From positions 695,927-759,926 of the forward strand of contig NZ_CP047901.1 of assembly GCF_009936135.1 (NCBI RefSeq): DNA of 64,000 nt, in the 5' to 3' direction. This DNA comes from Candidatus Chazhemtobacterium aquaticus (GTDB taxonomy: Bacteria; Patescibacteriota; Microgenomatia; UBA1400; Chazhemtobacteraceae). Position numbers and translations under genes: made by a program. Shown here one piece after another: positions 13,066-42,212 of the stretch. The notes beneath the pieces were generated by a model. It saw only the letters and a list, made by a program, of their open reading frames with translations. It was not told where the DNA came from and ran no database searches. How positions within the stretch are numbered: the first letter of the stretch is position 1; each line of letters opens with the position of its first letter.

Positions 13066-13437
13066 CTAACAAGGACATGTCTCGTTTAAACCCACTGTTG
13101 ATGAGAAATATCCCACACTCCAGATACCAGAGTCCAGATATATCTTCCTGATGAACTTAAATTTTTTCTTTAATCGAAAGCTGGTATATGTCTTAATCCT
13201 TTGAACCACCCTGGCTACTGATATATCTGGTGAAATCTCAATTTGTAGATGAATGTGATCACTACCCGTGTTGACAGCGTAAAGATACAGTGTGGGATAT
13301 TTCTTGATCAGTTGGTGTAACTCTAACAGCAACTCTTCCTTGACATACGACTTGATGTATTTCCGTCTGTATTTTGTTCCCCAGACTAGATGGTACTGGT
13401 GTTGATAGGCACAGTGATTAAGGCTTCTCTTTCTCAT
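13066..13437 (-). CDS. tnpA: IS200/IS605-family Y1 (HUH) transposase TnpA
   Basis: YHLVWGTKYRRK and HIHLQIEISPDISVARVVQRIK motifs. Confidence 0.8.
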   Translation of the reverse strand: MRKRSLNHCAYQHQYHLVWGTKYRRKYIKSYVKEELLLELHQLIKKYPTLYLYAVNTGSDHIHLQIEISPDISVARVVQRIKTYTSFRLKKKFKFIRKIYLDSGIWSVGYFSSTVGLNETCPC

Positions 13438-13443
13438 GCAGTC

Positions 13444-13469
13444 AGCATATCAGGTCAGCCTGATATGCT
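13444..13469. repeat. perfect 11-bp-stem hairpin next to the tnpA start (putative IS200 end hairpin)
   Basis: agcatatcagg-tcag-cctgatatgct; a second hairpin ccccgcat...atgcgggg lies at about 13477-13527. Confidence 0.55.
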
Positions 13470-13541
13470 CATTCATCCCCGCATTCCATACGCTAACTAC
13501 TCTCGTGTGACGCTATTCCATGCGGGGTTTCCTGTAAGGAA

Positions 13542-13582
13542 GAAAAAACCGCCAGTCGGGTATGGGTATACCAAAACTGGCG
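13542..13582 (-). terminator. rho-independent terminator of the 13622-13996 gene
   Basis: ccgccagt...actggcgg stem followed by a T6 run on the minus strand. Confidence 0.6.
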
Positions 13583-24502: not shown

Positions 24503-24577
24503 AAACCGCTTTTTCCACCGCAAGTCCTATAAAATGATAAAATATACTTCTCGTACCTAATATTGTGGAGATTAATC

Positions 24578-27894: not shown

Positions 27895-27915
27895 ACTTCT
27901 TTAAGTATATCAACC

Positions 27916-28348: not shown

Positions 28349-28966
28349 TTATTCCATTTCCTTTCTACCCTCCATAGCCCTACTTAAGGTCGTGTCATCC
28401 GCATACTCGAGGTCTGCTCCGGTCGGCAAACCTCTCCCGATTCGCGTTACCCTTACTTTTTCTCCCATCTCCTTAACTTTGTCGGCAATGTACATCGCTG
28501 TCGCCTCCCCCTCCATCGAAGGGTTGGTGGCAATAATCAATTCATCTACCTGCTCCTCCTTAATCCGTTTTAACAATTGAGGTAAATAAATGTCATTCGG
28601 TCCAATATTATTTAAGGGATTAATCACTCCGTGTAAAACGTGATACACCCCAGTGTATCCATCAGATCGCTCCAAAGCCAACAAATCAAGCGGTGTCTCC
28701 ACCACACAAATCTGACTACTGTTTCTACCCCTATCACTACAAATCCGACACGGACTCTCCTCATCCACATTGAAACATCTCTCACACATCTTGGTATCCT
28801 TCTTTAATCTTTCCACCGCCTCAGCAAATCTCTCTAATCGATCCTGCGGAAACCTAAGCATATAGTAAGCCAATCTCTGGGCAGTTTTAGGCCCAATTCC
28901 CGGCAACCCCTCCAATTGATCCACCAATCTTTGTATCGGTCGTATACTTCTCATAGCAACTACCAA
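28349..28966 (-). CDS. recR: recombination protein RecR
   Basis: HhH (GIGPKTAQRLA), C4 zinc finger (CERC..CRIC) and Toprim domain. Confidence 0.85.
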   Translation of the reverse strand: MVVAMRSIRPIQRLVDQLEGLPGIGPKTAQRLAYYMLRFPQDRLERFAEAVERLKKDTKMCERCFNVDEESPCRICSDRGRNSSQICVVETPLDLLALERSDGYTGVYHVLHGVINPLNNIGPNDIYLPQLLKRIKEEQVDELIIATNPSMEGEATAMYIADKVKEMGEKVRVTRIGRGLPTGADLEYADDTTLSRAMEGRKEME

Positions 28967-29019
28967 GTATATCTCTTAATCAAACAAAAACGAAGGATAA
29001 TTCCAAACCCACTACAAAA

Positions 29020-29295
29020 CTACTTAAACATCTTACCTAGATCACCCATCATTCCCTGCATCTCACTAGCTGCCCATTTCTGTGCTCGCTCAATCGCTTG
29101 ATTCACCACCTTTGACAGCTCTTTCATCTCCTCACCTGCCACCTCAATCCGCTTCACCTTACCATCACCACTCACTATTACCTTAACATCACCTTCTTCA
29201 TGAACAATCTTCTTTTTACTTATCCTTCTCTGCAACATCACCAACTTAGCTGCTGCTGCTCCTTTTGATCCGATTCCTCCCAGTTTATCTAGCAT
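29020..29295 (-). CDS. ybaB: nucleoid-associated protein YbaB/EbfC
   Basis: MLDKLGG...VKVIVSGDGKVKRIEV; the ORF extends upstream to 29337. Confidence 0.8.
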   Translation of the reverse strand: MLDKLGGIGSKGAAAAKLVMLQRRISKKKIVHEEGDVKVIVSGDGKVKRIEVAGEEMKELSKVVNQAIERAQKWAASEMQGMMGDLGKMFK

Positions 29296-29309
29296 TACCC
29301 CATTATACC

Positions 29310-29347
29310 AAAAAAAACGGCGAGTCGTTTTTAACAAAACTCGCCGT
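29310..29347 (-). terminator. rho-independent terminator
   Basis: acggcgagt/actcgccgt 9-bp stem with a T8 run on the minus strand. Confidence 0.6.
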
Positions 29348-29365
29348 CAACACGAAACGGTCTGC

Positions 29366-29647
29366 TCAGATGTAGGCAGGCTCCCAGGTTAACAGTTCCA
29401 ACCACTGTTCATCACTGTCAGGCTGGACACTGACTGTCACCTCAGAACACATGCGAGTCACTATCTCTAGCAACTCATCCCGAGTGACAGCTTTACCGAA
29501 AGGAACTCCGGCCTTAACCGCTCTGGCGACCACTTCACGGGCCATTGCTGCAATCTGGTCTGGAGGCAGATAGTTAAATTCCACTGACTCCACCATCAGC
29601 TTAATGACCCTGACCTTAAAGTACTCCTCGCTTATTACGTACAGCAC
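29366..29647 (-). CDS. hypothetical 93-aa protein on a compositionally atypical cassette
   Basis: GTG start with AAAGGAG SD; own terminator; inserted between dnaX and ybaB. Confidence 0.5.
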   Translation of the reverse strand: MLYVISEEYFKVRVIKLMVESVEFNYLPPDQIAAMAREVVARAVKAGVPFGKAVTRDELLEIVTRMCSEVTVSVQPDSDEQWLELLTWEPAYI

Positions 29648-29703
29648 GGCAGAACTCCTTTCTACCTTAAGTTACCAGTATTTTACCACTATATAGGATA
29701 CTT

Positions 29704-31236
29704 TTACACCTCTACTCCAAACACATCCTCTACTGCTTCAACCAGCTTGTCATCCTTCTCTGGAGCAGTGACATTATCATGCTCCTCCATTACTTTTGCC
29801 GCTCTCACCGCCTTCTCTCCCAACACAAACTTAACTGCTGGCAAACCCACTTCCCTTTTTAGTGTTTCCTCAAGCATTCGCCTTCTCGTCTCCTGTTCCA
29901 ACTGCTCCTTATGAAACTTGTAATATGCCTCTATCACCAAAAAATGATTTTCAACCCTTTTTGGTCTACAGGACCTAAGTAACCCAGCCACACTATGATT
30001 TAAAGGTGACAATGACTTAATCACCTCATCCCATTTACTCATCACCTCATCCAAAGACACCTTCTCTCGAACCTGTACCATATCTGCCTTAATCTCGTCT
30101 CGACCTGTCTCGTTCTTTTCACCCATCTCATCCCTTTTCTCATCTAGTTTGCCAACCTCAGCTTTTTGCTCCTTAGCTACCCTCACGCTTCCACCACTTA
30201 TTTCCACTTCCCTATCTAGCTCAACTGCCACCATTTCTAAAGGTAAAGCCGGTACCACTGCTGTCTTGATCTCTCCGCATGCTCGTGCCACCAACATTGT
30301 CACCACTCGCAATCTCTCAATCTCCGCCTCTATCTCCACCTTACCTATCCCGTATTTTGCTTTTAGCTGACCTCTTACATAATCAAGTAGCTTCTCGGCA
30401 AAGTTACTCCAATCCACACCACCTTTCTCCATACTCTCAAGCTTCTCTAAAACCAACTTAGTTTTACCACTAATCAATAACTGGGCAACTTGCTTAACCT
30501 CTCCACCTCTCACACTTCCCAGTATCTCCTCAACTTTCTTCAAACTAACCTCTTTTCCAAAACTAGCCAGTTGCTCCAACAACTTGTGTCCCTCCCGAAA
30601 ACTCCCATCCACCGACTCAGCCAATAACTCAAGCACCCCTTCCTCAAGTTTTAGCCCTTCACCTTTAACCACTTTACTCAAACTTTTAATCACCTCATCC
30701 TTACCTGCCTTTACAAAACCAACTCGAGTACACCTACTCACTATCGTCTCAGGTACCTTATGCTCCTCAGTTGTACACAACACAAACATTGCATGCTCTG
30801 GTGGCTCCTCCAAAGTCTTAAGCAAAGCGTTAAAAGCCTCTACCGTCAACATGTGTACCTCATCGATGATATACACCTTCTTTCTACCAGCTACCGGTGA
30901 CAAACCAATCTTATCTCTTAACTCCCTGATTGCATCAATCCCTCGATGCGACGCTGCATCAATCTCCATTACATCTACAAAACTTCCCTGTTCTATAGCC
31001 CTACAGTTATCACACTCTAAACACGGCTCACCACTAGCGGTTGGCTTCTCACAATTAACCACCTTAGCCAGTATTCTAGCCGCCGAGGTTTTACCCGAAC
31101 CCCTTGGGCCCACAAACAAATATGCATGGGCCAACTCACCCTTCTTTAACCCCGCCGCCAAAGTATTCCTTACCTCCTCAAGGTCAAGTTCCTCAATTCT
31201 TCTTGGTCGATATTTACGATAGAAACTACTCATCAA
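29704..31236 (-). CDS. dnaX: DNA polymerase III subunit gamma/tau
   Basis: AYLFVGPRGSGKTS P-loop, C4 zinc module, DEVHML box. Confidence 0.85.
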   Translation of the reverse strand: MMSSFYRKYRPRRIEELDLEEVRNTLAAGLKKGELAHAYLFVGPRGSGKTSAARILAKVVNCEKPTASGEPCLECDNCRAIEQGSFVDVMEIDAASHRGIDAIRELRDKIGLSPVAGRKKVYIIDEVHMLTVEAFNALLKTLEEPPEHAMFVLCTTEEHKVPETIVSRCTRVGFVKAGKDEVIKSLSKVVKGEGLKLEEGVLELLAESVDGSFREGHKLLEQLASFGKEVSLKKVEEILGSVRGGEVKQVAQLLISGKTKLVLEKLESMEKGGVDWSNFAEKLLDYVRGQLKAKYGIGKVEIEAEIERLRVVTMLVARACGEIKTAVVPALPLEMVAVELDREVEISGGSVRVAKEQKAEVGKLDEKRDEMGEKNETGRDEIKADMVQVREKVSLDEVMSKWDEVIKSLSPLNHSVAGLLRSCRPKRVENHFLVIEAYYKFHKEQLEQETRRRMLEETLKREVGLPAVKFVLGEKAVRAAKVMEEHDNVTAPEKDDKLVEAVEDVFGVEV

Positions 31237-31364
31237 TCACCACTCTAGAATAGCCCCATCAGTGATATCAACTACCAATTAATAGATCAAAATACTACTC
31301 CTCATCCACATACTATGAAGTATCAGGCAAAACTCAATTCACTAAATTCCTTTCATTAACCCCG

Positions 31365-31393
31365 TTGCAAAATTATTTTTATCATGTTATACT
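31365..31393 (+). promoter_or_regulatory. sigma70-like promoter (TTGCAA-17-TATACT)
   Basis: Near-consensus -35/-10 with 17-nt spacing, 48 nt upstream of the 31442 ATG. Confidence 0.45.
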
Positions 31394-31441
31394 ATAGGTC
31401 CGCAACCAGCGGATTGCACATATATTGCTAAGGAGCACAGA

Positions 31442-31630
31442 ATGGCTAAGAATGCTCACGGTGAAAAGCTCTGCAGGTGTGGGGTGCCGTTAAGATGGCA
31501 TCCAGCAGGCTGCCCCTCCGCGAAGGACCTGCCCAAGGTTCTCGCCAAAATCGAGAAAGAACGGCAAGCAAGAGAGGCCCAAGAAGCCGCTCGAACCACC
31601 GTTCCTGAAGCAGCCGCTGCAACAGACTGA
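31442..31630 (+). CDS. hypothetical 62-aa Cys-containing protein (GC-rich cassette)
   Basis: AAGGAG SD; CRCG...HPAGC; about 58% GC and G-rich, unlike native plus-strand genes. Confidence 0.5.
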   Translation: MAKNAHGEKLCRCGVPLRWHPAGCPSAKDLPKVLAKIEKERQAREAQEAARTTVPEAAAATD

Positions 31631-31662
31631 TCACCACTCCCCTAGCTCTTCTTTCTTTTTTC

Positions 31663-31704
31663 AGCCACCCTGCGAAATACTTTCAAAGGGTGGCTCCTTT
31701 TTTT
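31663..31704 (+). terminator. rho-independent terminator
   Basis: agccaccc/gggtggct stem followed by T7. Confidence 0.65.
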
Positions 31705-31711
31705 CTAGAAT

Positions 31712-32119
31712 CTAATCGTGATGAATCCCCATCAAGTGAAGCAGCCCGTGTTTAACCAAGAAGTCGACTTCCTCATCTACTGTAATCTGTCTCTCTAATG
31801 CTTGCTTCATTGCCTGTGGCCAACTTACAATCACTTCTCCCAAATACAATCCGTTATCAGTGGGTTCAATAAACTCACTTACCTTCTCACTAGTCTCCGT
31901 TTGCGAAAAACTTAATACATCAGTCGTTCCCTCCACCTTTAAATATTTCATATTTAACTCCTTCATCTTCCGATCTCCCACCATCACCACACCTACCTGC
32001 ATCTCGCCCTCCACCCCCATCTCACGCAAAAAATCTCTCACTAATTTTCTAATTCGCTTTCGATCAATCGGATATCGACTATCCGCCCTTATATGAACCT
32101 TAATCTCTTTGTCTCCCAT
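31712..32119 (-). CDS. ybeY: rRNA maturation endoribonuclease YbeY
   Basis: TDVLSF...HGLLHLMGIHHD zinc-binding motif. Confidence 0.8.
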   Translation of the reverse strand: MGDKEIKVHIRADSRYPIDRKRIRKLVRDFLREMGVEGEMQVGVVMVGDRKMKELNMKYLKVEGTTDVLSFSQTETSEKVSEFIEPTDNGLYLGEVIVSWPQAMKQALERQITVDEEVDFLVKHGLLHLMGIHHD

Positions 32120-36564: not shown

Positions 36565-36582
36565 CCAAACCACGTGGGGGGA

Positions 36583-36652
36583 GGGACTCGAACCCTCAAC
36601 CTTGGATTGACAGTCCATGCTCGTCCATTGAGCTTCCCCCAACATATAAAAG
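36583..36652 (-). tRNA. tRNA-Asp(GUC), with non-canonical acceptor and 8-9 positions
   Basis: D-arm GCTC/GAGC; anticodon loop CUGUCAA; T-arm GAGGG-TTCGAGT-CCCTC; discriminator G; 5 G versus 6 C at the acceptor homopolymers. Confidence 0.6.
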
Positions 36653-36660
36653 AACAAACA

Positions 36661-36767
36661 AGCGGGTAGGAGGACTCGAACCCCCAACCGTCGGTTTCCA
36701 TCAGAAAGCCTGCAGACCTCCCATGAAAACTGGAAAGCGCCGCTCTATCCAATTGAGCTATACCCGC
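36661..36767 (-). tRNA. 107-nt tRNA-like gene with an internal insertion or duplication in the anticodon arm (possibly Arg-UCU or Lys-UUU)
   Basis: Acceptor GCGGGTA/TACCCGC, D-arm GCTC-AATTGGATA-GAGC, T-arm GGGGG-TTCGAGT-CCTCC; 55 nt between D- and T-arms containing near-duplicate TTTTCATGGGA / TTTCTGATGGAAA. Confidence 0.5.
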
Positions 36768-40886: not shown

Positions 40887-41606
40887 ATGGAAATCCTTAA
40901 ATCCTCAGGCACCTATCGCATCCTCACTCCAACCGAAGTACTCCTAAACCAGCTTCTCATCATCGAGGAAGCTGGACGGACCAGTTACCAATCGCAAAAA
41001 GGGTCAATCACTCTGGCTACCGCTACCAAGTTTGTCCGCATGCTCATCCGCAATGGACACGAAAGTGTCATTGAGCACGGATCACTTTCCGTCAAATTCA
41101 CTGGCGTCTCCCGGGGCTTCACTCACGAAGACGTCCGCCACCGCCTCTCCTCATTCACCCAGGAGTCAACCAGATATGTTGACTACACCAGAGGTGGAGA
41201 TGAACCAGACCTAGAACGCTTTCAGGCCCGATTCATTCTTCCTCCCCACCGCGATGAACAAGAACTCATGACCCGACCAGACGGTAGGCAGATCACCCCA
41301 GCACAGATGTTTGAGGAAGCAGAACAAAACTACCGTACCCTCAGACTTCACGGCTGGAAGCCTCAAGATGCCCGTCAAGTTCTCCCCATAGGCATCGAAT
41401 CCGATCTTGTTCACACCGCCAACTTTAGGGAGTGGCGCCACATCTTTAAGCTAAGAACCGCCAAGGACGCCCACTGGGAAATTCGTCTCGTCATGTGCGC
41501 CCTCCTCCAAGAACTGCAAACTGTTCTACCCGCAGTTTTTGACGACCTCCAATACGCTGGCCAGGACCAAGATGGTCATCCCTACTTTAAAACCGTCAAG
41601 ATCTAG
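40887..41606 (+). CDS. thyX: flavin-dependent thymidylate synthase
   Basis: RHRLSSFTQESTRY (RHRxxSxxxxSxRY) ThyX signature. Confidence 0.85.
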   Translation: MEILKSSGTYRILTPTEVLLNQLLIIEEAGRTSYQSQKGSITLATATKFVRMLIRNGHESVIEHGSLSVKFTGVSRGFTHEDVRHRLSSFTQESTRYVDYTRGGDEPDLERFQARFILPPHRDEQELMTRPDGRQITPAQMFEEAEQNYRTLRLHGWKPQDARQVLPIGIESDLVHTANFREWRHIFKLRTAKDAHWEIRLVMCALLQELQTVLPAVFDDLQYAGQDQDGHPYFKTVKI

Positions 41607-41625
41607 GAGGTGCCACAAACACAAA

Positions 41626-41661
41626 CCCCGTCAGGACATGTTGCCTCACGGGGTTTATTTT
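41626..41661. terminator. bidirectional stem-loop between convergent thyX and dcd
   Basis: ccccgtcagg...cctcacgggg followed by a T-run. Confidence 0.45.
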
Positions 41662-42212
41662 TACTCACTATCCCAGAACCGGCTCTCAGTTGGACCCATC
41701 TGTCCTTGATAGCGGTTGCCAGCAGTTCCATATGGTCGATTGACCGGACTGCTCATCACAAAAAAGCAGATCTGAGCTACCTTGATTCCCGGACGCAGGA
41801 CGATTGGTACCACGTTGACATTACTCATCTCGAAGGTGATCTGCCCCTCAAAGCCGGGATCAATATATCCAGCAGTCGCGTGGACCACCAGTCCCAACCT
41901 CCCCAGGCTACTCTTTCCCTCAAGTTTAGCCGCCAAATCAATCGGTATCCTGAAACGCTCTACCGTCGAGGCCAGCGCAAACTCGCCAGGATGAAGTACA
42001 AAGCCCAACTCATCAACCTCAACCAACTGAGTCTCCACACGCCTTTTTTGAGCCAAGTCGATATGAGTCATATCATGGCTGGAAAAAAGACGAAACTGAC
42101 TACCCAGACGAACATCATAAGTTGACGGCTGGACACACTCCGGGTCAAACGGGTCAATCAGTAACGAATGAGTCGCCACTCGCTCCAGCATATCCCTGTC
42201 AGACAGTATCAT
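41661..42212 (-). CDS. dcd: dCTP deaminase
   Basis: 183 aa; dUTPase-superfamily pattern (..YDVRLG..GYIDPGFEGQITFE..). Confidence 0.8.
   Translation of the reverse strand: MILSDRDMLERVATHSLLIDPFDPECVQPSTYDVRLGSQFRLFSSHDMTHIDLAQKRRVETQLVEVDELGFVLHPGEFALASTVERFRIPIDLAAKLEGKSSLGRLGLVVHATAGYIDPGFEGQITFEMSNVNVVPIVLRPGIKVAQICFFVMSSPVNRPYGTAGNRYQGQMGPTESRFWDSE

What the first reader, a model, noticed from the sequence alone, without database searches (positions are those of the whole stretch)
29300..29703. An extra 93-aa ORF with its own SD and terminator is inserted in the conserved dnaX-ybaB-recR module
dnaX, ybaB and recR are normally contiguous. Here a GTG-initiated ORF (AAAGGAG Shine-Dalgarno site) with atypical composition and a dedicated hairpin and T8 terminator sits between dnaX and ybaB. 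It has the same cassette architecture as the other GC-rich units.
Basis: partly seen in the sequence, partly recalled or inferred. Interest (0 to 1): 0.55.

Follow-up and report, generated by a model that had tools for sequence, protein, structure and literature searches.

The report
Hypervariable small gene between dnaX and ybaB
A self-contained small gene of unknown function sits inside the normally contiguous dnaX-ybaB-recR replication/repair module of an uncultured groundwater-type bacterium (Ca. Chazhemtobacterium), and near-identical strains carry very different versions of it, as if versions are swapped by recombination.

Summary
On the minus strand, a GTG-initiated 93-codon ORF (29366-29647) lies between dnaX and ybaB. 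It has an AAAGGAG Shine-Dalgarno site 7 nt upstream, a promoter-like TGGTAAAAT, and a hairpin plus T8 terminator. Its composition is atypical for this genome.

The "recently inserted foreign cassette" reading is only half right. The gene is absent from this slot in wider Microgenomates relatives. Every sampled member of the window's own genus has it at exactly this position, as at least four deeply diverged allele types (37-78% amino-acid identity).

Between strains whose DnaX, YbaB and RecR are 97-100% identical, the ORF is only 42% identical, with saturated synonymous divergence. Allele A is 98.6-99.6% identical in DNA across backgrounds whose dnaX differs by 5-8%. Allele type does not follow flank phylogeny.

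The break points are the promoter on one side and the last nine codons (invariant LLTWEPA[YF]I) plus the terminator on the other.

The protein is real (dN/dS 0.16 within an allele lineage), acidic, and confidently predicted to fold. It has no sequence or fold relative anywhere.

Best reading: a chromosomal, moron-like, recombination-swapped accessory gene under diversifying selection. Its biochemical role is unknown. A second GC-rich unit upstream of dnaX behaves the same way.

The parts
29704..31236 (-). dnaX (clamp-loader tau/gamma subunit), the upstream neighbour. Its last ~170 nt and stop codon form the conserved left anchor.
   Evidence: Pfam DNA_pol3_delta2 2e-45 and DnaX_C. It is 97% amino-acid identical in the allele-B strain L086.
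29680..29697 (-). Promoter-like element CCTATATAGTGGTAAAAT (extended -10 TGGTAAAAT at 29688-29680). It is conserved in all allele types.
   Evidence: The identical motif precedes each of two tandem units in L082. Promoter function is inferred from the consensus only.
29395..29673 (-). Allele-specific (non-alignable) segment: leader, Shine-Dalgarno site, start codon and the first 84 codons.
   Evidence: DNA homology between the window and L086/L103 (flanks about 94% identical) stops at 29674 and resumes at 29394.
29655..29661 (-). Shine-Dalgarno site AAAGGAG, 7 nt upstream of the GTG.
   Evidence: Read directly from the sequence. Alleles B, B' and C have GGGAGG, AGGAGG and TGGAG at the equivalent place.
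29366..29647 (-). ORF93: a 93-aa acidic protein (pI 4.5), allele type A. It is identical to GenBank QHO63736.1 / WP_161932100.1, 'hypothetical protein', Ca. Chazhemtobacterium aquaticus.
   Evidence: dN/dS is 0.16 between alleles B and B'. AlphaFold pLDDT is 79.7.
29369..29395 (-). The last nine codons, LLTWEPAYI. They are invariant at the peptide level in all alleles (Y/F only) and mark the right recombination boundary.
   Evidence: The alleles differ by several synonymous changes here and by only one conservative replacement.
29310..29348 (-). Intrinsic-terminator-like hairpin (GACGGCGAG...CTCGCCGT) followed by T8.
   Evidence: -16.9 kcal/mol, z -4.0. It is conserved in alleles A, B, B' and C.
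29302..29310 (-). Promoter-like extended -10 (TGGTATAAT), 6 nt before the ybaB ATG. This suggests a leaderless or near-leaderless ybaB transcript.
   Evidence: Outgroups L096 and L102 also have a -10-like box just before ybaB. This is inference.
29020..29295 (-). ybaB/ebfC (nucleoid-associated protein), the downstream neighbour and right anchor. Its diversity is unusually low within the species complex.
   Evidence: Pfam YbaB_DNA_bd. It is 98.6-100% nt identical across strains whose dnaX is 91.5-95% identical.
28349..28954 (-). recR.
   Evidence: Pfam Toprim_4, RecR_HhH, RecR_ZnF and RecR_C.

Best explanation
ORF93 is a genuine protein-coding gene restricted to one genus. It forms its own transcription unit (promoter-like box, Shine-Dalgarno site, ORF, intrinsic terminator) wedged between dnaX and ybaB in Ca. 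Chazhemtobacterium (order UBA1400, Microgenomatia).

It encodes a small acidic cytoplasmic protein with two parts. One is an allele-specific globular body (beta-alpha-alpha-beta-alpha-alpha). The other is an invariant exposed C-terminal tail, W-x2-LLTWEPA[YF]I.

The gene exists as discrete, anciently diverged allele types (A, B/B', C). Homologous recombination moves these between closely related chromosomes. One crossover falls in the conserved dnaX 3' end and promoter. The other falls in the conserved tail codons, terminator and ybaB.

Shown:
- the architecture of the unit;
- that it codes for a protein under purifying selection within an allele lineage;
- the discrete alleles;
- incongruence between allele type and flank phylogeny;
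- the break points;
- the non-host composition of all alleles.

Inferred:
- Every allele lacks the genome-wide G/C strand disparity, although allele divergence is saturated. The alleles therefore did not diverge in place. They were probably drawn repeatedly from a pool with a different strand or replication history (a mobile or extrachromosomal source, or frequent relocation).
- The pattern 'always present, always different' points to diversifying or frequency-dependent selection. That is typical of conflict proteins such as an inhibitor, immunity or decoy protein against a variable antagonist.
- In that reading the invariant tail docks to a conserved host partner or processing machine.

The biochemical function is not established.
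For: Architecture.

Positional homologues, found only in this slot:
- The exhaustive HMMER search of 1.84 billion representative proteins gave only P0001, P0003 and P0004, plus one junk repeat protein.
- The profile search added only P0005.
- All lie between dnaX and ybaB.

Hypervariability:
- Window versus L086: DnaX 97%, YbaB 100% and RecR 99% amino-acid identity, but ORF 42%.
- In the same pair, ORF dS is about 2.0 and dN 0.57, against flank dS of 0.02-0.38.

Real gene: for B versus B', dS is 0.75, similar to the flanks (0.86-0.99), and dN/dS is 0.16. The tail codons carry synonymous changes only, plus one Y/F replacement.

Allele spread and incongruence:
- Allele A is 98.6-99.6% nt identical in 11 contigs whose dnaX is 91.5-95.1% identical.
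- dnaX dS is 0.18 for L086(B)-L092(A), against 0.27-0.30 for either versus the window (A).
- Left-flank haplotypes of L001(A) and L092(A) are closer to B strains than to the window.

Break points: 29674 and 29394.

Composition:
- Third-position skew is 0.15-0.43 in all alleles, against 0.69 in the host (binomial p from 1e-2 to 2e-6).
- The same weak skew marks bona fide mobile genes in the window, the IS3 and IS200 transposases.
- The genome-wide strand disparity is a published property of this lineage (PMC7143001).

Other points:
- All alleles are acidic, pI 4.4-4.9.
- The structure prediction is confident, with a disordered tail.
- L082 carries a second, unrelated acidic ORFan unit with the same promoter and a terminator in tandem.
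Against: - No functional evidence of any kind. There were no hits in Pfam, PHROGs, NCBIfam, PADLOC, PDB sequences, or Foldseek against PDB and BFVD.
- No external reservoir was found in viral contigs, phage records, plasmids or the 1.84-billion-protein library. The 'imported from elsewhere' step therefore rests only on composition.
- Selection on codon usage or mRNA properties could also keep the composition atypical.
- The gene is present in every sampled strain, which fits a housekeeping accessory role as well as a conflict role.
- The promoter is a consensus match only. 3 matches to TGGTAWAAT in the window is not significant by itself.
- Alleles B, B' and C are each known from only a few short contigs.
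Confidence: 0.6

Rival explanations
1. Recent one-off horizontal insertion of a foreign mobile cassette into this genome.
For: Atypical GC and skew. Own Shine-Dalgarno site and terminator. The slot is empty in most wider relatives.
Against: - The slot is occupied by a homologue in every sampled close relative, across backgrounds down to 69% DnaX identity.
- B and B' co-diverged with their flanks.
- No transposase, integrase or repeat flanks the unit.
- No homologue exists outside this slot.
Confidence: 0.1
2. In-place rapid evolution. A resident gene diverges extremely fast through positive selection or local hypermutation, without allele import or exchange.
For: All alleles sit at one site in one orientation. 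No donor pool was found. dN/dS between alleles (0.2-0.3) is higher than in neighbours (0.01-0.08).
Against: - Synonymous divergence is also saturated (dS about 2, against 0.27 in dnaX), so the effect is not selection on amino acids alone.
- Alleles are discrete, with no intermediates. There are 22 near-identical A variants.
- Allele A is far more uniform than its flanks, and allele type is incongruent with flank haplotypes.
- Saturated in-place evolution should have produced the host strand skew, and it did not.
- There is no template repeat for a diversity-generating retroelement in the window.
Confidence: 0.12
3. A lineage-specific housekeeping accessory of the replication/recombination module. 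For example, a partner of the clamp loader, YbaB or RecR that docks through the conserved C-terminal tail, under relaxed constraint elsewhere.
For: Fixed position inside dnaX-ybaB-recR. Present in every sampled strain. Invariant tail under purifying selection. Tail disordered in the model, like a docking peptide.
Against: - The body is 42% identical where DnaX, YbaB and RecR are 97-100% identical. This is hard to reconcile with a co-evolving core complex.
- It has its own promoter and terminator rather than operon coupling.
- There is no similarity to HolC, HolD or any replisome family.
- The tail does not resemble the local SSB tail, DDIPF.
Confidence: 0.13
4. Not a protein gene: a structured RNA or a regulatory leader/attenuator of ybaB. 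Balanced G/C content would then reflect base pairing.
For: The allele-A mRNA folds better than shuffles (z -3.1 for the CDS, -4.2 with the terminator). Balanced G/C is also seen at the tRNA genes.
Against: - No Rfam match even at E <= 1.
- The folding excess is not conserved in alleles B, B' and C (z -1.8, -0.2, -0.6).
- An ORF of 93-102 codons with a Shine-Dalgarno site is kept in all four types.
- Protein-level homology has E-values of 1e-12 to 1e-16 without DNA similarity.
- dN/dS is 0.16.
Confidence: 0.03

Closest known systems
Phage 'morons': single accessory genes with their own promoter and terminator, inserted between two genes that are adjacent in related phages (definition as quoted in PMC4378225).
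   Same: A single ORF with a promoter-like box and an intrinsic terminator. It is inserted between genes that abut in relatives. Its nucleotide composition differs from its neighbours. No recombinase target is recognisable.
   Different: It sits in the core chromosome between essential housekeeping genes of a Candidate Phyla Radiation (CPR) bacterium, not in a phage or prophage. It is fixed in the genus and occurs as exchangeable alleles of one protein family rather than as presence/absence of unrelated genes.
Replacement-type variable loci: the same chromosomal slot, mutually unalignable alleles, conserved flanks used for homologous recombination. Examples are O-antigen and capsule clusters, pherotype or specificity genes, and immunity genes. 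This comparison is from general knowledge.
   Same: Discrete deep alleles at one slot. Near-identical flanks. Allele type incongruent with background phylogeny. One allele is homogeneous across diverged backgrounds.
   Different: The replaced unit is only about 280 nt (84 codons plus the ribosome-binding site). The product is a small cytoplasmic protein with no signal peptide and no partner gene. One boundary lies inside the coding sequence, at a conserved tail.
Small acidic inhibitor or immunity proteins, such as colicin DNase immunity proteins, anti-restriction proteins and anti-CRISPR proteins. This comparison is from general knowledge.
   Same: Size of about 90-100 aa. Acidic (pI 4.4-4.9). 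Strain-level diversification. An independent transcription unit.
   Different: No sequence or fold similarity was detected. No cognate toxin, defence or phage context. The resemblance is circumstantial only.
Integron gene cassettes.
   Same: A compact ORF followed by an imperfect inverted repeat. A tandem arrangement of two units occurs in one relative (L082).
   Different: Each unit carries its own promoter. The inverted repeat is followed by a T-run, as in an intrinsic terminator. No integrase adjoins the array, whose neighbours are dnaX and ybaB.

Membership tests
Moron (phage accessory transcription unit) | Single coding region flanked by its own promoter and terminator | tested here: inconclusive
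   The terminator is clear. The promoter is only a conserved extended -10-like box. No transcript data are available.
Moron (phage accessory transcription unit) | Inserted between two genes that are adjacent in related genomes | tested here: met
   The dnaX-ybaB gap is 20 nt or less in 21 of 28 relatives and 408 nt here.
Moron (phage accessory transcription unit) | Nucleotide composition different from adjacent genes | tested here: met
   Third-position skew is 0.22, against 0.76 (dnaX) and 0.95 (ybaB). This is the lowest 0.3% of core windows.
Moron (phage accessory transcription unit) | Resides in a phage or prophage genome | tested here: not met
   The neighbours are cysS, recR, ybaB, dnaX, ybeY, yqeY, a HIT-family gene and rseP-like housekeeping genes. 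There is no match in viral contigs or phage records.
Replacement-type allelic locus | Homologous but unalignable alleles at the same position with conserved flanks | tested here: met
   Break points at 29674 and 29394. Flanks are about 94% nt identical. The ORF has no DNA similarity and is 42% amino-acid identical.
Replacement-type allelic locus | Allele type incongruent with background phylogeny (exchange by recombination) | tested here: met
Integron gene cassette | Adjacent intI integrase and attI site; promoterless cassettes ending in attC | tested here: not met
   The immediate neighbours are dnaX and ybaB. The units have their own promoter-like boxes, and the inverted repeat is followed by a T-run. 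No formal attC model was run.
Target gene of a diversity-generating retroelement | Nearby template repeat; variation confined to adenine-templated positions | tested here: not met
   No second copy of any part of the unit exists in the 64-kb window. The alleles differ at all codon positions and by indels.
Type II toxin-antitoxin pair | Two small co-transcribed genes | tested here: not met
   It is a single ORF between a promoter-like box and a terminator. The alleles of the nearby 62-aa unit are not linked to ORF93 alleles.
Known anti-phage defence proteins (PADLOC) | Match to a defence-system protein model | tested here: not met
   There is no hit for alleles A, B or C. B' has one insignificant hit (E 0.01).
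Clamp-loader accessory subunits (HolC/HolD-like) or any Pfam/NCBIfam family | Profile match above the curated threshold | tested here: not met
Structured RNA family (Rfam) | Covariance-model match | tested here: not met
   There is no match at E <= 1 in 28900-31800.

The most novel reading that the evidence does not exclude
Ca. Chazhemtobacterium (and perhaps other UBA1400 CPR bacteria) may carry a previously unrecognised class of chromosomal, moron-like micro-cassettes: promoter, small ORF, terminator. At least two flank dnaX. These cassettes would be continually replaced by recombination from an unsampled pool (phage, plasmid or another replicon lacking the host's G/C strand disparity). They would encode strain-specific conflict proteins. 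ORF93 would be an acidic inhibitor or immunity-type protein whose invariant LLTWEPA[YF]I tail plugs into a conserved host machine.
Probability: 0.2. Interest if true: 0.7.

Novelty: new variant of a known kind. Interest (0 to 1): 0.5.

Why it matters
CPR/Patescibacteria have tiny, streamlined genomes, and little is known about how their populations diversify or defend themselves. This locus matters for three reasons.

- Even the conserved dnaX-ybaB-recR core module hosts single-gene slots that are always filled. They are swapped among strains as discrete, ancient alleles.
- The lineage's extreme genome-wide G/C strand disparity works as a built-in clock for residence time. Genes that lack it, although their divergence is saturated, cannot have evolved in place. 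That points to an unseen gene pool, possibly CPR phages or plasmids.
- The protein family has no relatives in about 15 billion proteins and a confidently predicted fold with no structural match. It is a candidate for a new interaction module with an unusual invariant C-terminal peptide.

If the function is never found, it remains a well-characterised orphan gene of modest importance.

Tried and rejected
- **Spurious hit.** The 1325-aa HMMER hit P0002 is a low-complexity repeat translation, not a homologue.
- **Structured RNA or attenuator.** No Rfam hit. Excess folding is limited to allele A.
- **Diversity-generating retroelement or local repeats.** No second copy in the window.
- **External reservoir.** Nothing in viral contigs, phage records or plasmids.
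- **Homology between ORF93 and the tandem unit g78 in L082.** None. g78 is itself an orphan.
- **Cognate pair.** I tested whether ORF93 pairs with the basic Cys-rich 62-aa unit upstream of dnaX. Rejected: allele-A strains carry at least four different types of the 62-aa gene.
- **SRP RNA.** The GC-rich unit upstream of dnaX is not SRP RNA. It is a protein gene with positional homologues.
- **SSB-tail mimic.** The local SSB ends in DDIPF, unlike LLTWEPAYI.
- **Shared mobile-element signal.** The promoter motif is not an obvious shared signal. Its only approximate copies in the window (2 mismatches each) lie about 100 nt upstream of rpsF and at 24526-24543.

Full report
**1. What is there**

All genes in this part of the window lie on the minus strand.
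- dnaX is 29704-31236, ybaB is 29020-29295 (ATG) and recR is 28349-28954. Pfam identifies all three securely.
- Between dnaX and ybaB lies a 93-codon ORF, 29366-29647.
- Its GTG is the first possible start after an in-frame TAA. AAAGGAG lies 7 nt upstream.
- Downstream, a stem-loop (29348-29318) is followed by T8. It folds at -16.9 kcal/mol with z = -4.0.
- A promoter-like extended -10 box (TGGTAAAAT, 29688-29680) sits 30 nt after the dnaX stop.
- A second box (TGGTATAAT) sits 6 nt before the ybaB ATG.

**2. Organism and compositional background**

The + strand of the whole window has a GC skew of about -0.41. Genes of both orientations follow the strand rather than their own direction.

The ORF's product is identical to a 'hypothetical protein' of Candidatus Chazhemtobacterium aquaticus (QHO63736.1 / WP_161932100.1). 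The genome-wide G/C disparity between strands is a published peculiarity of this UBA1400 / Microgenomatia lineage (PMC7143001).

Against this background ORF93 is an outlier.
- Its third-position skew is 0.22, against 0.69 +/- 0.13 in core genes. That is the lowest 0.3% of 962 core windows of equal size.
- Its GC3 is 0.57, in the top 2.3%.
- The other weak-skew genes in the window include an IS3-type and an IS200-type transposase, plus thyX and dcd.

Weak skew therefore behaves as a marker of DNA that has not resided long in this strand context.

**3. Is it 'extra'?**

The dnaX-ybaB(-recR) arrangement is widely conserved (PMC9610160).
- In 28 Microgenomates loci where ybaB could be placed, the dnaX-ybaB gap is 20 nt or less in 21. 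Here it is 408 nt.
- No ORF93 homologue is detectable in 80 genome loci or in the more distant metagenome loci.
- The nearest strongly skewed outgroups (L100, L101, L102) have an empty slot.
- A few lineages carry unrelated material there: L042 has a small ORF, and L097/L098 have two genes.

The gene is thus a derived addition, and the module tolerates insertions.

**4. It is not a private insertion**

The exhaustive HMMER search of 1.84 billion representative proteins found only three real relatives. These are P0001 (99%), P0003 (102 aa, 52%) and P0004 (98 aa, 41%). A profile search added P0005 (99 aa).

Every one of them lies between dnaX and ybaB. This gives four allele types:
- A: the window, L001, L092, L104-L117;
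- B: L086-L090, L093, L103;
- B': L091, 78% identical to B;
- C: L082-L085, L094.

No strain of the genus with an empty slot was seen.

**5. The key result: discrete, ancient alleles in near-identical backgrounds**

| Comparison | DnaX | YbaB | RecR | ORF93 |
|---|---|---|---|---|
| Window (A) vs L086 (B), amino-acid identity | 97% | 100% | 99% | 42% |
| Window (A) vs L086 (B), dS | 0.27 | 0.018 | 0.38 | ~2.0 (dN 0.57) |

- DNA homology between the window and L086 stops at 29674, just past the -10 box. It resumes at 29394, the last nine codons.
- Because synonymous divergence is saturated too, the alleles are old. They are not merely under positive selection.
- Conversely, allele A is 98.6-99.6% identical in DNA in 11 independent contigs whose dnaX is only 91.5-95.1% identical and whose recR is 92.4-96.5% identical.
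- Flank phylogeny contradicts allele type. dnaX dS is 0.18 between L086 (B) and L092 (A), but 0.27-0.30 between either and the window (A).
- The left-flank haplotypes of L001 (A) and L092 (A) are closer to B strains than to the window.
- The 22 members of the allele-A cluster differ by at most a few residues, and there are no intermediates.

This is the signature of allele exchange by homologous recombination, anchored in conserved flanks.

**6. It is a real protein**

- B and B' have diverged in step with their flanks (dS 0.75, against 0.86-0.99), with dN/dS of 0.16.
- All four types keep an ORF of 93-102 codons with a Shine-Dalgarno site.
- The final nine residues, LLTWEPA[YF]I, are invariant. 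Their codons carry several synonymous differences and only the Y/F replacement.
- AlphaFold gives a confident beta-alpha-alpha-beta-alpha-alpha model (pLDDT 79.7) with a disordered tail.
- The proteins are acidic, pI 4.4-4.9.
- There is no signal peptide or membrane segment. This was read from the sequence by eye; no predictor was run.
- Nothing similar exists in Pfam, PHROGs, NCBIfam, PADLOC, PDB sequences or Foldseek PDB/BFVD.

The RNA alternative fails. There is no Rfam hit, and folding excess appears in allele A only.

**7. Composition as a clock**

All alleles lack the host disparity. Third-position skew is 0.22 (A), 0.43 (B), 0.39 (B') and 0.15 (C).

With saturated synonymous divergence, in-place evolution should have imposed the strand bias, as it has on ybaB (0.95) next door. 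The simplest inference has two parts.
- The allele lineages spent most of their history in a different replication or strand context. This could be a mobile or extrachromosomal pool, or frequent relocation, as for the equally skew-less IS elements.
- They enter the slot by recombination. The B lineage would be the longest resident, since it has the highest skew and has co-diverged with its flanks.

No such pool was found in public data, so this step remains inference.

**8. Cassette-like organisation**

In L082 (the allele-C lineage) two units stand in tandem after dnaX. Each begins with CCTATATTATGGTAAAAT and ends with a hairpin and T-run. The first encodes an unrelated 78-aa acidic orphan protein.

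In the window, a second GC-rich unit lies upstream of dnaX at 31442-31630 (+).
- It encodes a 62-aa basic Cys-rich protein.
- It has the same promoter / Shine-Dalgarno / ORF / hairpin-T7 build.
- It is also hypervariable, with at least six types at 39-66% identity among strains whose dnaX is 91-95% identical.
- Its types are not linked to ORF93 alleles, so the two are not a cognate pair.

It hints at a class of swap-prone micro-cassettes.

**9. Mechanism and function**

Shown: the unit is autonomous, lineage-restricted, protein-coding and recombination-swapped.

Inferred: it is under diversifying or frequency-dependent selection, because it is always present and always different. The proposed two-part design is a variable body facing a variable antagonist or ligand, and an invariant C-terminal peptide docking to a conserved host component.

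A conflict role (inhibitor, immunity or decoy protein) is the best guess, but it has no direct support. A housekeeping accessory of the replication/repair module is the main functional rival. The 42% identity of the body against 97-100% identical putative partners weakens that rival.

**10. Comparison and novelty**

The closest concepts are phage morons (PMC4378225) and replacement-type allelic loci.
- It meets the architectural, positional and compositional criteria of a moron, but it is chromosomal and core-embedded rather than in a phage.
- It meets the criteria of a replacement locus, but at the scale of about 280 nt and with one boundary inside the coding sequence.

The protein family is new and annotated only as 'hypothetical'. 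I rate it a new variant of a known kind, of moderate interest.

Noticed in passing
window 31442-31630 (+), terminator 31663-31705: A second GC-rich (0.58), skew-less unit lies between ybeY and dnaX. It has a promoter-like TTGCAA-17-TATACT, the Shine-Dalgarno site AAGGAG, a 62-aa basic Cys-rich ORF (C-x-C-G-[IV]-P ... G-C-P) and a hairpin plus T7. It is also hypervariable: at least six types at 39-66% amino-acid identity among strains whose dnaX is 91-95% identical. Its types are not linked to ORF93 alleles.
   Followed up: partly
whole window: There is an extreme G/C disparity between strands (+ strand GC skew about -0.41, mean of 200-nt windows). Genes of both orientations follow it. This matches the published peculiarity of Ca. 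Chazhemtobacterium / UBA1400 genomes (PMC7143001). Skew-less segments coincide with tRNAs, IS elements and variable small ORFs.
   Followed up: partly
window 13066-13560 (-); L103 10352-10374: The left end of an IS200/IS605-type element (tnpA 13066-13437), CTTCCTTACAGGAAACCCCGCAT..., abuts the T-run of a terminator-like hairpin. In allele-B strain L103, the same IS end sits directly after the T-run of the ORF93 terminator, where the contig ends. The IS appears to target sites just 3' of terminator T-runs, and it is polymorphic at the ORF93-ybaB junction.
   Followed up: partly
window 27895-27915 versus L091 2993-3715, L092 5390-6315, L104-L114: A PIG-L family deacetylase gene (about 0.92 kb) lies between the 141-aa gene and cysS in most related strains. 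It is absent from the window.
   Followed up: no
L082 7666-7902: In the allele-C lineage, an additional 78-aa acidic orphan ORF with its own terminator is inserted between dnaX and the ORF93 homologue. It is flanked by a 19-nt direct repeat of the promoter motif, CCTATATTATGGTAAAATA.
   Followed up: yes
window 29020-29310 (-): ybaB has a TGGTATAAT box only 6 nt before its ATG, which suggests a leaderless transcript. Its diversity is far lower (98.6-100% nt identity) than that of dnaX and recR (91-96%) across the species complex. This suggests a local recombination sweep.
   Followed up: partly
window 36571-36640: The 70 nt that include tRNA-Asp(GTC) (36573-36642) are missing from the otherwise colinear allele-B contig L103. 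Rfam also calls a 107-nt tRNA-like match at 36661-36767 that ARAGORN does not report.
   Followed up: no
window 40887-42212: thyX (+) and dcd (-) have higher GC (0.51-0.52). Their strand skew is weaker than in core genes, clearly so for dcd (third-position skew 0.31) and only slightly for thyX (-0.51). This is consistent with horizontally acquired nucleotide-metabolism genes.
   Followed up: no
window 29704-29872 versus L001, L092, L086: The last ~170 nt of dnaX in the window differ by 14-15 substitutions from all other A and B strains. Those strains differ from each other by only 0-9. This indicates a separate recombination tract ending at the ORF93 promoter.
   Followed up: partly
L097/L098 2942-5601; L004, L005, L011 and others: In other Microgenomates the ybaB-recR gap often holds 1-2.4 kb of extra genes. 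In L097/L098 both gaps are filled, the genes between ybaB and recR lie on the opposite strand, and locus-wide skew is weak (0.28). The dnaX-ybaB-recR module seems to be a recurrent insertion site in this group.
   Followed up: no
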